A stretch of DNA of 63,141 bases, the filler included, from Collodictyon triciliatum (Eukaryota), in NCBI GenBank assembly GCA_043381765.1. It is 22 parts of 22 records of this genome, joined end to end, with 100 filler letters (N's around TTAATTAATTAA, not from the genome) between each part and the next. Parts side by side here need not be neighbours in the genome. Positions count along the whole stretch, not along the records: positions 34,550 to 37,322 come from JBHJMP010008318.1; 21 more parts are not named here. The stretch is one strand, 5' to 3'. The position numbers and the translations under genes were made by a program. This document shows positions 34,668-36,516 of this stretch, piece after piece. The notes under the pieces were generated by a model, which did not search any database, was not told the origin of the DNA, and worked only from the letters and a program-made list of their open reading frames with translations. The stretch's first letter is position 1; each line of letters starts with the position of its first letter.

Positions 34668-36516
34668 GTTCGAACAGCAAAAATCTGAATTTTCTGGGAA
34701 TTGTTTATCTTCAACTTGGAAAGTATGATTTATTTGATTATGTATTTATTTTCATTTATCATTTAATTGGCTTATTATTTAATAGACATGATAAAGCTCT
34801 GGAGTACTATCACAAATCATTGGATATTCGACTGAAAGTGTTTGGAGAAGTCCACCCTGATGTTGCTGCCTCATATAATAATATTGGGATAGTTTACAGG
34901 AAACTCGGAAAGTATATTTTATTTGATTATGTTTATGTGTATCCTTTCTTTAACTCATTATTTAATAGGAATGACAAAGCTCTGGAATACTACCATAAAT
35001 CATTGTATATTCGACTGAAGGTGTTTGGAGAAGTCCACCCTGATGTTACCACAACATATAATAATATTGGGATAGTTTACAGGAAACTCGGAAAGTATAT
35101 TTTATTTGATTATGTTTATGTGTATCCTTTCTTTAACTCATTATTTAATAGATATGACAAAGCCTTGGAGCACTACCACAAATCATTGGAAATCCAACTG
35201 AAAGTGTTTGGAGAAGTCCACCCTGATGTTGCCACTTCATATAATAATATTGGAGCCGTTTACAATAGCCTCGGAAAGTATCTTTTATTTGATTGTATTT
35301 ATGTTTATTTATCATTTAATTGCCTTATTATTTAATAGACATGAGACAGCCCTTGAATACTATCACAAAGACCTTGATATTACACTGAAGGTGTTTGGAG
35401 AAATCCACCCTGATGTCGCCGCTTCATATATGGGAATTGGGAATGTTTACAATAGCCTTGGAAAGTATCTTTTATTCGATTATGTATTAATGTGTATCCT
35501 TTCGTTAACTTATTATTTAATAGAAATGATAAAGCCCTTGAATACTATCACAAATCACTGGAAATTAAGCTGAAGATGTTTGGAGAAGTCCACCCTGATA
35601 TTGCCAATTCATATAATAATATTGGAGACGTTTACAGTGACCTTGGAAAGTATGATTTATTTGATTATCTTTATGTGTTTGTGTATCCTTCGTTAACTTA
35701 TTATTTAATAGACATGATAAAGCTCTGGAGTACTATCACAAATCATTGGATATTCGACTGAAAGTGTTTGGAGAAGTCCACCCTGATGTTGCCGCTTCAT
35801 ATATGGGAATTGGGATAGTTTACAGGAAACTTGGAAAGTATGTTTTATTTAATTGTATTTATGTTTATCTTTCATTAACTTATTATTTAATAGACATGAC
35901 GAAGCACTGGATTACTTAAACAAATCATCAGAAATTCGACTGAAAGTGTTTGGAGAAGTCCACCCTGATATTGCCAATTCATATAATAATATTGGAATCG
36001 TTTACGATAACCTCGGAAAGTATCTTTTATTTGATTATCTGGTAATGTTTATCCTTTCATTAACTTTTATTTGACAGGCATGACAAAGCACTGGATTACT
36101 ACCACAAATCATTGGAAATCCGACTGAAAGTGTTTGGAGAAGTCCACCCTGATGTTGCCACTTCATATAATAATATTGGAGCCGTTTACAATAGCCTCGG
36201 AAAGTATCTTTTATTTGATTGTATTTATGTTCATTCTTTCATTAACTTATTATTGAATAGACATGACAAAGCTCTGGAGTACTACCACAAAGACCTTGAA
36301 ATTACTCTGAAAGTGTTTGGAGAAGTCCACCCTGATGTTGCCACTTCATACCACAATATTGGTAGCCTACTTATGAACCAGGAGAAATATCAAGAGGCTT
36401 TCGACATGTATCAAAAAGCCAACACGATATTCAAGACTGTGTATGGCGCAAACCACCCCCATACGAAGGTTTCAGAAAAGCAAATGATGGATGCACAGAA
36501 GATGCTGACCCGATAA
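34668..36516 (+). CDS. TPR-array protein C-terminus (kinesin-light-chain/NPHP3-type 42-aa TPRs), one repeat per exon
   Basis: Eight 126-nt exons (34786-34911, 34969-35094, 35152-35277, 35339-35464, 35524-35649, 35712-35837, 35894-36019, 36078-36203) plus terminal exon 36261-36516. Consensus KHDKALEYYHKSLEIRLKVFGEVHPDVATSYNNIGxVYxxLG. Confidence 0.95.

What the first reader, a model, noticed from the sequence alone, without database searches (positions are those of the whole stretch)
34668..36516. One-TPR-per-exon cassette array: candidate exon-shuffling receptor diversification system
Seen: eight consecutive exons of exactly 126 nt each encode one 42-aa TPR. All nine introns (56-63 nt) are phase 2, split the same Lys codon and are homologous, and introns 34912-34968 and 35095-35151 are identical. 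Any exon can therefore be skipped, duplicated or swapped in frame. Known: exon-per-repeat TPR/LRR arrays of this design are described for NB-ARC-TPR and ROCO genes of the brown alga Ectocarpus, and internally conserved repeats diversify fungal NLRs. Inference: this is the sensor end of an NLR-like receptor diversified by unequal crossover or alternative splicing in a lineage where this may be undescribed.
Basis: partly seen in the sequence, partly recalled or inferred. Interest (0 to 1): 0.75.

Follow-up and report, generated by a model that had tools for sequence, protein, structure and literature searches.

The report
One-repeat-per-exon TPR gene fragment
This is the tail end of a gene from an unidentified eukaryote in which each 42-residue TPR protein-binding repeat has its own 126-base exon; the layout is real and is spliced, and it resembles candidate immune receptors of brown algae, but the part of the gene that would show it is a receptor is missing from this short contig.

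Summary
There are eight 126-nt exons, each encoding one 42-aa TPR_12/TPR_10 repeat. Nine homologous GT..AG introns of 56-63 nt all split an AA|R lysine codon, and two of them are identical. RNA-derived contigs of two related organisms lack three of the introns at exactly the predicted borders.

The window is a chain of 22 unrelated ~2.8-kb contigs. The gene occupies only 34550-37322 and is cut at its 5' end, so its N-terminus cannot be read.

The array grew by duplication of a 183-nt exon-plus-intron unit; introns and exons are equally alike, at 82%. It is a mosaic of exact 96-109-nt tracts that cross exon-intron borders. This points to gene conversion or unequal crossover, not exchange of whole exons.

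The most variable residues fall at TPR positions 2, 9, 12 and 13, on the ligand-binding face. A paralogue, and roughly 190 laid contigs in each of two transcriptome runs, show a multi-copy family.

The NLR reading is plausible (about 0.35) but unproven. DUF4062 N-terminal exons lie on two other contigs, unlinked to this one. Alternative splicing is not shown. The closest precedent is the Ectocarpus NB-ARC-TPR genes.

The parts
34550..34604 (+). Partial upstream exon, cut by the contig start. It has 18 codons plus the first base of a Gly codon and is a degenerate TPR-like or linker sequence.
   Evidence: The frame is open. An RNA-contig joint runs 34603/4 to 34667/8, and loose ends before 34667 in X6 and X5 match the exon end. 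Depth in bin 34550-34621 is 124 in X3 and 144 in X6.
34605..34667 (+). Intron 0: 63 nt, GT..AG, phase 1. It is not homologous to the array introns.
   Evidence: Joint 'skips 63, GT..AG (cut +1)' in X3; sequence.
34668..34722 (+). First exon of the finding: 55 nt, the second half of a degenerate TPR, ending ..LGK.
34723..34785 (+). Array intron 1: 63 nt, phase 2.
34786..36203 (+). Eight 126-nt cassette exons (34786-34911, 34969-35094, 35152-35277, 35339-35464, 35524-35649, 35712-35837, 35894-36019, 36078-36203), separated by seven phase-2 introns (34912-34968, 35095-35151, 35278-35338, 35465-35523, 35650-35711, 35838-35893, 36020-36077).
   Evidence: Introns 34912-34968 and 36020-36077 are removed in RNA contigs. 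Intron bins have depth 0-6 against 85-530 in most bins that lie wholly in exons, for X3 and X6.
36204..36260 (+). Array intron 9: 57 nt, phase 2.
36261..36516 (+). Last exon: 256 nt. It holds one more TPR, a diverged C-terminal capping TPR and the stop codon TAA at 36514-36516.
   Evidence: P0001; Pfam TPR_12 E = 1.3e-20 and TPR_10 E = 7.3e-17.
36517..36700 (+). 3' untranslated region, at least to 36700. It is shared at about 85-99% identity by many transcripts of related organisms.
   Evidence: Depth 1327 and 1196 in X3, and 630 and 347 in X6, in bins 36494-36637.
34872..34968 (+). Exact 97-nt tract, identical to 35055-35151. It covers the last 40 nt of a cassette plus the whole following intron.
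   Evidence: mosaic test.
35197..35305 (+). Exact 109-nt tract, identical to 36123-36231. It covers the last 81 nt of a cassette plus the first 28 nt of the intron.
34771..34866 (+). Exact 96-nt tract, identical to 35697-35792. It covers the last 15 nt of an intron plus the first 81 nt of a cassette.

Best explanation
This is the 3' part of a real, spliced protein-coding gene of a eukaryote, cut off by the start of a 2773-nt contig. It encodes at least ten kinesin-light-chain-type TPRs (Pfam TPR_12/TPR_10), which form an open solenoid that binds a ligand on its concave face.

The array arose by tandem duplication of a 183-nt unit made of one 126-nt exon and one minimal intron, so the introns are copies of each other. 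The units have since been reshuffled by homologous recombination between units (gene conversion or unequal crossover), with end points anywhere in the unit. The resulting mosaic differs mainly at the ligand-contact positions of helix A (TPR positions 2, 9, 12, 13).

The gene belongs to a multi-copy, expressed family whose members carry other cassette orders and other residues at those positions. In function it is a variable binding or sensor domain.

Shown: anatomy, splicing, mosaic structure, location of the variation, existence of paralogues. Inferred: ligand binding, recombination as the cause of the mosaic, and diversification as the benefit. Not known: what sits N-terminal of the array. 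My best single guess is a STAND NTPase of the DUF4062-NACHT type, at about 0.35.
For: Anatomy and coding.

Splicing: RNA-run contigs skip 34605-34667, 34912-34968 and 36020-36077 exactly at GT..AG. Intron bins have depth 0-6 against hundreds in most exon bins. One loose end in X3 looks to me (recalled) like a SMART template-switch oligo, which would mean cDNA.

Unit duplication: mean intron identity is 0.820 (36 pairs) and mean exon identity 0.823 (28 pairs).

Mosaic: there are exact tracts of 109, 97, 96 and 50 nt between units that are otherwise about 82% alike, and three of them cross exon-intron borders. The longest runs of shared polymorphic sites were 45, 38, 36 and 29 of 111. The first three were reached by none of 2000 shuffles of site order, and the fourth by one at most, taking the longest run of any pair in a shuffle.

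Location of the variation: numbering was fixed by the Pfam TPR_1 match. Of the 4 positions with four residue types, 3 are TPR positions 9, 12 and 13. Of the 8 positions with three or more types, 4 are on the list 2, 5, 9, 12, 13, 33, 34. Hypergeometric P is 0.012 and 0.018. Those positions are the variable concave face, and 2, 5, 6, 9, 12, 13 contact ligand in HOP (PMC1261162, passages read). The letters printed between joints of paralogous RNA contigs encode yet other residues at positions 9, 12 and 13 (table 5c, my reading).

Family: P0011, a 260-aa gene call on a 1288-nt NCBI contig, reads through four cassettes. Its 126-nt spacing and its translated intron starts match those here. In one search, 191 contigs of X3 and 192 of X6 were laid at 85% likeness or more.
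Against: - No DNA or RNA reads of the source organism were available. The best run held 0.08 of the sampled words, and most laid contigs are under 99% alike: 156 of 191 in X3 and 171 of 192 in X6. The splicing evidence therefore comes largely from paralogues or related species.
- Exact tracts of about 100 nt are close to short-read lengths, so part of the mosaic, the cassette order or the cassette number could be an assembly artefact.
- Overall dN/dS between cassettes is 0.44 (pS 0.290, pN 0.146), which shows no net positive selection.
- Only 8 cassettes were available, and the position test was chosen after seeing the data.
- The most variable position besides 9, 12 and 13 is TPR position 31, which is not on the published lists.
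- The units used overlap by one intron, so the E2-E3 and E3-E4 runs both rest on the one identical intron pair.
- Mean amino-acid identity between cassettes is 0.76. This is below the 85% used to define highly internally conserved repeats in fungal NLRs (PMC4986451).
Confidence: 0.75

Rival explanations
1. One reading: the array is the sensor end of an NLR-like STAND receptor, with a DUF4062, NACHT or NB-ARC domain N-terminal of the TPRs, on sequence missing from the contig. This is nested within the best explanation and does not exclude it.
For: - Two of the other 21 contigs of the window carry 5' exons of DUF4062 genes. On the minus strand, 20721-20590, 20488-20393 and 20313-20170 match residues 1-134 of the DUF4062-bearing TPR proteins tested. 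The stretch 26374-26312 (minus strand) matches DUF4062 at 20.5 bits, below Pfam's cut-off of 24.7.
- In four of those proteins scanned here (P0014, P0016, P0090, P0112), DUF4062 sits at the N-terminus with a C-terminal TPR_12 array. In P0016, P0090 and P0112 an AAA_16/NPHP3_N match (plus NACHT in P0090 and P0112) lies at about residues 230-420.
- By my reading of the precomputed Pfam lists, some of them cut off, about 20 of the 120 best long relatives of the cassettes carry a STAND-type NTPase and 9 carry DUF4062.
- The same exon design occurs in Ectocarpus NB-ARC-TPR genes.
- Hypervariable concave-face positions and recombining repeats are the pattern of fungal NLR TPRs.
Against: - There is no physical link. 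The DUF4062 exons are on other contigs, and the window's contigs are unrelated pieces.
- No NACHT or NB-ARC exon was found anywhere in the window.
- About 100 of the 120 long relatives have other partners (CHAT, ankyrin with PARP, ADP-ribosyltransferase, TIR, kinase, ROC-COR) or none.
- Single cassettes are 72-77.5% identical to units in proteins of all these architectures, so the TPRs do not discriminate between them.
Confidence: 0.35
2. A cassette system that works by alternative splicing: the symmetric phase-2 exons are skipped in different combinations, so that one locus yields many receptor isoforms.
For: - All eight cassettes are 126 nt and phase 2-2, so any skip stays in frame.
- RNA contigs of X3 and X6 join non-adjacent exon borders: 34911 to 36079, 34912 to 36262, and 36019/20 to 36262/3.
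- Alternative splicing of one-repeat LRR exons is reported for brown-algal ROCO genes (PMC11378527, abstract read).
Against: - The same contig sets also give joints that run backwards (34912 to 34788, 36019 to 35152, 36200 to 36080). Linear splicing of this locus cannot make these.
- Several of the non-adjacent and backward joints carry 1 to 26 other letters at the joint (table 5c), and reads were laid at 85% likeness or more. Paralogues with other cassette orders explain all of them.
- The contigs are short de Bruijn-graph contigs from other organisms, not reads of this locus.
Confidence: 0.12
3. Assembly artefact: the array is a collapsed or chimeric consensus of several paralogous arrays, so the cassette number, the cassette order and the identical introns are not those of any real locus.
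For: - The contig is only 2773 nt, starts inside an exon and ends in a T run of about 150 nt.
- It contains exact repeats of 96-109 nt, near short-read length.
- The family is multi-copy.
- One X3 contig places a different full cassette directly in front of a copy 100% identical to 34786-34897, where the assembly has the 55-nt first exon (record 9).
Against: - Units differ by about 18%, enough for an assembler to separate most of them.
- The reading frame, all 20 splice sites and the 126-nt lengths are intact throughout.
- The three adjacent joints seen in RNA contigs agree with the assembled order.
- This rival would change details, not the existence of the design, which P0011 shows independently.
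Confidence: 0.2
4. An ordinary kinesin light chain or nephrocystin-3 orthologue: a conserved single-copy housekeeping TPR protein.
For: Pfam TPR_12, TPR_10 and a sub-threshold TPR_NPHP3 match (37-42 bits against a cut-off of 100). Some database relatives are named kinesin light chain or nephrocystin-3 by their sources.
Against: - There are at least ten TPRs, with 76% mean mutual identity and homologous introns. As I recall, kinesin light chains have six mutually diverged TPRs.
- The family is multi-copy with differing cassette orders.
- No close orthologue was found among 5.8 billion clusters. The best identity was 67% over half of the last exon, and that hit is the read-through paralogue.
Confidence: 0.03

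Closest known systems
Ectocarpus NB-ARC-TPR genes with repetitive TPR exons (Zambounis et al. 2012, PMC3341825; passages and section 16 read)
   Same: The TPR domain is built from 126-nt exons, each encoding a 42-aa unit (a 34-residue TPR plus linker). Exon lengths are symmetric, so cassettes can be gained or lost in frame. The genes form a multi-copy family and are proposed to be variable ligand-binding domains.
   Different: - Introns here are minimal (56-63 nt) and are copies of each other, giving a compact 183-nt period.
- No inactivated or extra TPR exons lie in the introns or on the other strand, whereas Ectocarpus has them.
- The search motif printed in the paper starts at GKY and ends at Q. 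If that reflects the exon borders, the intron here (inside the K codon of GK) lies about two residues away. I could not check this.
- An NB-ARC domain is not shown here.
- The genome context here is AT-rich (34% GC on the contig). As I recall, Ectocarpus is GC-rich with long introns.
Highly internally conserved TPR, ANK and WD repeats of fungal NLRs (Dyrka et al. 2014, PMC4986451; passages read)
   Same: The repeats are similar to one another. There are signs of recombination between repeats. The variable residues map to alpha-helical positions on the concave face of a kinesin-light-chain-like TPR fold.
   Different: - The passages I read from that paper do not mention one intron per repeat; here every unit carries its own intron.
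- Mean amino-acid identity here is 76%, below that paper's 85% criterion; only two pairs reach 95%.
- Repeat-number polymorphism and positive selection were not testable here.
- An NTPase domain is not shown.
Brown-algal ROCO genes with one LRR per 72-nt exon (PMC3341825, passages read; PMC11378527, abstract read)
   Same: One repeat per exon, with exon shuffling and alternative splicing proposed as sources of receptor diversity.
   Different: The repeat type differs (LRR, not TPR), as does the signalling domain (ROC-COR). Alternative splicing is reported there and is not shown here.
DUF4062-NACHT/NPHP3_N-TPR_12 proteins from metagenomes (P0004, P0014, P0016, P0090, P0112)
   Same: They carry C-terminal arrays of the same TPR_12 type. 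Their N-terminal DUF4062 matches exons on two other contigs of this window.
   Different: There is no link between those exons and this array. The cassettes are no closer to these proteins than to TPR proteins of other architectures.

Membership tests
Pfam TPR_12 / TPR_10 (kinesin-light-chain-type 42-residue TPR) | Match to the family profiles above the curated cut-off | tested here: met
   For P0001, TPR_12 scores 73.8 bits (cut-off 30.1) and TPR_10 61.2 bits (cut-off 27.5). For P0002, TPR_12 scores 118.7 bits.
[quoted passage not shown] | Each TPR unit on its own 126-nt (42-aa) exon, with successive exons of equal length divisible by three | tested here: met
   Eight consecutive 126-nt exons, all flanked by phase-2 introns.
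[quoted passage not shown] | [quoted passage not shown] | tested here: not met
   The introns are 56-63 nt. A tblastn search with a cassette finds only the nine coding copies on the + strand and nothing else in the window.
[quoted passage not shown] | NB-ARC domain N-terminal of the TPR array in the same gene | not testable with these tools
   The contig begins at 34550 inside the gene, and no whole genome is held.
NLR-like STAND receptors (NACHT or NB-ARC NTPase plus repeat sensor) | P-loop STAND NTPase domain in the same polypeptide | not testable with these tools
   The upstream sequence is absent. No NACHT or NB-ARC exon was found anywhere in the window with 12 architecture probes.
NLR-like STAND receptors (NACHT or NB-ARC NTPase plus repeat sensor) | Variable repeat domain with the variation on the binding face | tested here: inconclusive
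   3 of the 4 most variable positions are TPR positions 9, 12 and 13 (P = 0.012). The sample is only 8 cassettes, the test was chosen after seeing the data, and overall dN/dS is 0.44.
Highly internally conserved (HIC) repeats as defined for fungal NLRs | At least 85% identity between repeats over at least 100 residues | tested here: not met
   Mean amino-acid identity between the 8 cassettes is 0.76, with a range of 0.59-0.95. The criterion is from PMC4986451.
Highly internally conserved (HIC) repeats as defined for fungal NLRs | Repeat-number polymorphism between individuals | not testable with these tools
   No reads of the source organism were found. The differing cassette orders in RNA contigs of related organisms could equally come from paralogues.
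Kinesin light chain | Six mutually diverged TPRs behind an N-terminal heptad-repeat coiled coil (recalled definition) | tested here: not met
   There are at least ten TPRs, eight of them 59-95% identical to each other. The N-terminus could not be read.

The most novel reading that the evidence does not exclude
The locus belongs to a large family of NLR-like (DUF4062-NACHT-TPR) receptors in a lineage where none has been described. In that family, minimal-intron TPR cassettes are recombined between paralogues and also alternatively spliced, so that a limited set of loci yields a combinatorial repertoire of binding surfaces. This would be a compact counterpart, evolved separately, of the exon-shuffling receptors proposed for brown algae.
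Probability: 0.1. Interest if true: 0.8.

Novelty: new member of a known kind. Interest (0 to 1): 0.45.

Why it matters
Arrays with one repeat per exon are one of the few gene designs proposed to let organisms without antibodies diversify receptors quickly. For TPRs, the only description I found in four full-text searches is the one in Ectocarpus.

A second, much more compact example would show that the design recurs. Its homologous 57-nt introns and ~100-nt recombination tracts would also offer a small, tractable locus for measuring cassette turnover, copy-number polymorphism and exon skipping.

The analysis also tempers the usual argument. The exact shared tracts ignore exon borders, so the introns are not needed for in-frame recombination. 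They matter only if splicing chooses among the cassettes.

Tried and rejected
- Whole-genome search of the window's own assembly: none is held.
- Earlier notes of this scan: nothing by place, by sequence or by words.
- Public runs: no run holds more than 0.08 of the sampled words. Depth, copy number and collapse could therefore not be tested on the source organism. Parts of the stretch without cover in the laid runs (for example bin 35846-35917 in X3 and X6) are not evidence of anything.
- Scan of metagenome contigs with the conserved exon-end and intron-start motif: 37 loci, each with a single match. None of the 37 holds a TPR exon by tblastn, so these are chance matches.
- Protein searches with the last exon and with a three-cassette read-through: thousands of generic TPR_12 proteins. 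Only 1 of the 248 fetched proteins (P0011) shows the translated-intron signature.
- Naming the organism: the protein atlas, queried with a mitochondrial-carrier exon and with a LINE reverse transcriptase, gave only 'Eukaryota', with Chordata, Ascomycota, Streptophyta or Arthropoda as the commonest phylum of the nearest clusters. Rfam found one tRNA and no rRNA. Pfam on nine other ORFs gave nothing specific to a lineage. I leave the lineage open.
- Hint of habitat only: 16 of 40 contigs laid from a freshwater metatranscriptome (X5) are at least 99% alike. DNA contigs of a freshwater metagenome (X1) cover exon plus intron with 21 differences in 191 nt.
- Inferring the N-terminal domain from cassette similarity: rejected, because single cassettes are 72-77.5% identical to units in proteins of many architectures.
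- Translated introns as coding sequence: four of the nine array introns are multiples of three and open in frame, but the other five shift the frame (two of these also meet a stop codon), and RNA contigs lack the introns. Rejected.
- Not used: the exhaustive representative search, structure prediction, fold search and complex prediction.
- Supplementary tables of PMC3341825 (exon lists) could not be seen. They may bear on where exactly the Ectocarpus introns lie.
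Full report
**What the window is.** N runs recur about every 2.87 kb as N44 + a 12-letter six-frame-stop linker + N44. Splitting at these linkers gives 22 pieces of 2767-2784 nt in roughly descending length, with GC from 0.33 to 0.51. The window is therefore a chain of unrelated short contigs. The finding lies on one piece, 34550-37322 (2773 nt, GC 0.34). 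Everything outside that piece is not genomic context, and the 'gap' in front of the finding is a contig end. No whole genome is held for the window, and this scan has no earlier notes on it.

**The observation.** All stated features are present.
- There are eight consecutive exons of exactly 126 nt.
- There are nine introns of 63, 57, 57, 61, 59, 62, 56, 58 and 57 nt. All are GT..AG and all lie after the second base of a Lys codon.
- Introns 34912-34968 and 35095-35151 are identical.
- Tandem Repeats Finder calls one array: period 183, 8.7 copies, 82% matches, score 1925.
- The joined reading frame is open from 34670 to the TAA stop at 36514-36516. It encodes nine units of the form K-[HNY]-D-K-A-L-E-Y-Y-H-K-S-L-x-I-x-L-K-V-F-G-E-V-H-P-D-V-A-x-S-Y-N-N-I-G-x-V-Y-x-x-L-G, followed by a diverged capping TPR.
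- Pfam assigns TPR_12 and TPR_10 well above their cut-offs.

**Splicing is real.** No public run holds the stretch; the best share of sampled words is 0.08. I laid four of the small-share runs at 85% likeness or more.
- Two runs labelled as single organisms (X3, X6) gave 191 and 192 contigs, of which 35 and 21 are at least 99% alike.
- They contain joints that remove 34912-34968 (both runs) and 36020-36077 (one contig in X3, three in X6) exactly at GT..AG.
- They also reveal an additional intron, 34605-34667 (63 nt, GT..AG). It is phase 1 by my translation.
- The stretch 34550-34604 is therefore a further coding exon (NAFLILILEHRISVETNE plus the first base of a Gly codon), and the contig starts inside the gene.
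- Bins that are mostly intron have depth 0-6, against 85-530 in most exon bins.
- One X3 loose end looks to me (recalled) like a SMART template-switch oligo, so X3 is cDNA.
- A freshwater metatranscriptome (X5) has 16 of 40 laid contigs at least 99% alike. A freshwater metagenome (X1) has low-depth DNA contigs that cover exon plus intron with about 11% differences. This hints that the organism or close relatives live in fresh water.

**How the array evolved.**
- Introns are as alike as exons: 0.820 against 0.823 mean identity. The duplicated unit was exon plus intron (183 nt).
- The similarity relations of exons and of their flanking introns disagree. Exon 2 is most like exon 7 (0.94) and exon 4 is most like exon 9 (0.94). 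The identical intron pair, however, lies between exons that are only 0.90 and 0.82 alike.
- The exact shared tracts are 109 nt (35197-35305 = 36123-36231), 97 nt (34872-34968 = 35055-35151), 96 nt (34771-34866 = 35697-35792) and 50 nt (35577-35626 = 35947-35996). The three longest cross an exon-intron border.
- In a GENECONV-like test, the longest runs of shared polymorphic sites were 45, 38, 36 and 29 of 111. The first three were reached by none of 2000 shuffles of site order, and the fourth by one at most, taking the longest run of any pair in a shuffle. The units used there overlap by one intron, so the E2-E3 and E3-E4 runs both rest on the one identical intron pair.
- This is the signature of gene conversion or unequal crossover between units. 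The end points are not at exon borders, and homologous exchange between 183-nt units keeps the frame in any case. The introns are therefore passengers of this process, not its enablers.
- These tracts are about one short read long, so an assembly contribution cannot be excluded.

**Where the cassettes differ.**
- Overall pS is 0.290, pN is 0.146 and the ratio is 0.44. There is no net positive selection.
- Replacements are concentrated. The Pfam TPR_1 match places cassette residue 27 at TPR position 1.
- The four positions with four residue types are TPR positions 9, 12, 13 and 31. The eight positions with three or more types include 2, 9, 12 and 13.
- Positions 2, 5, 9, 12, 13, 33 and 34 are the variable concave face of TPRs in general. 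Positions 2, 5, 6, 9, 12 and 13 contact ligand in HOP (PMC1261162, passages read).
- The overlap gives P = 0.012 and 0.018. The test was post hoc and used only 8 cassettes.
- The letters printed between joints of paralogous RNA contigs encode still other residues at positions 9, 12 and 13 (table 5c, my reading).
- This matches the pattern described for TPRs of fungal NLRs (PMC4986451, passages read). Mean cassette identity here (0.76) is, however, below that paper's 85% criterion.

**A multi-copy family.**
- P0011 is a 260-aa gene call on a 1288-nt NCBI contig. It is a read-through of four cassettes and four introns. It has 42-residue cassettes in changing frames, separated by about 20 translated-intron residues that begin like the introns here.
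- It is the only one of 248 fetched proteins with that signature, and it has no name.
- The RNA contigs of X3 and X6 join cassettes in orders that differ from the locus: forward skips, backward joints and joints with 1-26 other letters.
- Paralogues with other cassette orders explain all of these. Exon skipping could explain only the forward ones. Alternative splicing therefore remains possible but unshown.
- The 3' UTR is shared by many transcripts, with depth above 1000 in X3.

**What sits upstream.** This cannot be read.
- The long relatives of the cassettes have many architectures. By my reading of the precomputed lists (some cut off), about 20 of 120 have a STAND-type NTPase and 9 have DUF4062. 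Others have CHAT, ankyrin with PARP, ADP-ribosyltransferase, TIR, kinase, ROC-COR, or nothing.
- Single cassettes are 72-77.5% identical to units in all of these, so similarity does not decide between them.
Two other contigs of the window carry 5' exons of DUF4062 genes: 20721-20170 (minus strand, three exons matching residues 1-134 of the DUF4062-bearing TPR proteins tested) and 26374-26312 (minus strand).
- In P0014, P0016, P0090 and P0112, DUF4062 sits at the N-terminus before a C-terminal TPR_12 array. P0016, P0090 and P0112 have an AAA_16/NPHP3_N match between the two, with a NACHT match as well in P0090 and P0112.
- Two of 21 random 2.8-kb contigs suggests that DUF4062 genes are numerous in this genome. 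I put the NLR reading at about 0.35.

**Comparison with what is known.**
- The Ectocarpus NB-ARC-TPR genes have the same 126-nt, 42-aa TPR exons: 124 exons in 13 loci (PMC3341825).
- The differences here are minimal homologous introns, no dead exons in introns or on the other strand, and possibly a shifted intron position.
- Brown-algal ROCO genes do the same with LRR exons, and those exons are reported to be alternatively spliced (PMC11378527, abstract).
- Four full-text searches turned up no exon-per-TPR array outside Ectocarpus. Only open-access papers and preprints are covered by those searches.

**Lineage.** I could not name the organism. Whether this is a new lineage for the design therefore stays open.

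**Verdict.** It is a new member of a known kind. NLR identity and alternative splicing are unproven, because the contig ends inside the gene.

Noticed in passing
whole window; e.g. 34450-34549: The window is a chain of 22 pieces of 2767-2784 nt, joined by N44 + a 12-letter six-frame-stop linker + N44 and ordered roughly by falling length. Neighbouring pieces are unrelated contigs, so any reading of 'context' across a linker is invalid.
   Followed up: yes
window 20170-20763 (minus strand): This is the 5' end of a gene with a DUF4062-type N-terminus in three exons (about 20763-20590, 20488-20393, 20313-20170). It matches residues 1-134 of DUF4062-bearing TPR proteins, three of which scan with a STAND-type NTPase match, and it is cut by the contig end. 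By my reading of the sequence, its first intron also splits a Lys codon after AA.
   Followed up: partly
window 26312-26460 (minus strand): This is a second DUF4062-like first exon (..ARVFISSTFRDMQRERDIFF..). Pfam DUF4062 scores 20.5 bits, below the cut-off of 24.7. It lies on a contig otherwise filled with long purine-rich (GAA/GAG-type) simple repeats.
   Followed up: partly
window 29185-31386 (+): An uninterrupted 733-codon open frame made almost entirely of ankyrin repeats (Ank_2 E = 2.4e-100).
   Followed up: partly
window 50404-51719 (minus strand): A fragment of a LINE-type reverse transcriptase (zf-RVT 28.8 bits; RVT_1 21.9 bits, below its cut-off). The nearest atlas clusters are eukaryotic, with Chordata or Arthropoda as the commonest phylum.
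   Followed up: partly
window 7264-8361 (minus strand): A bZIP transcription-factor open frame with Ala-Thr and Gln-rich runs, on the one GC-rich contig (GC 0.51). This contrasts with GC of 0.33-0.44 on the other contigs.
   Followed up: no
window 37169-37322 and 37424-37587; also 31414-31574, 40060-40166: Many contigs end in homopolymer runs of about 150 nt or in short simple repeats (T, A, TTCTT, CTTTCTCTCC). These are probably where the assembler stopped.
   Followed up: no
window 52098-52168 (+): One tRNA gene (Rfam RF00005, 37.7 bits). It is the only Rfam match in the window.
   Followed up: no
window 34723-34785, 34912-34968, 35095-35151, 36204-36260: Four of the nine array introns are multiples of three and contain no in-frame stop, so retaining them would insert 19-21 residues without breaking the frame. 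The other five introns shift the frame, and two of those also meet a stop. No evidence of retention was seen in this locus.
   Followed up: partly
window 53986-54540 (minus strand): A RING-finger open frame (zf-RING_UBOX E = 1.4e-07) followed by a Cys/His-rich stretch that matched no Pfam family.
   Followed up: no
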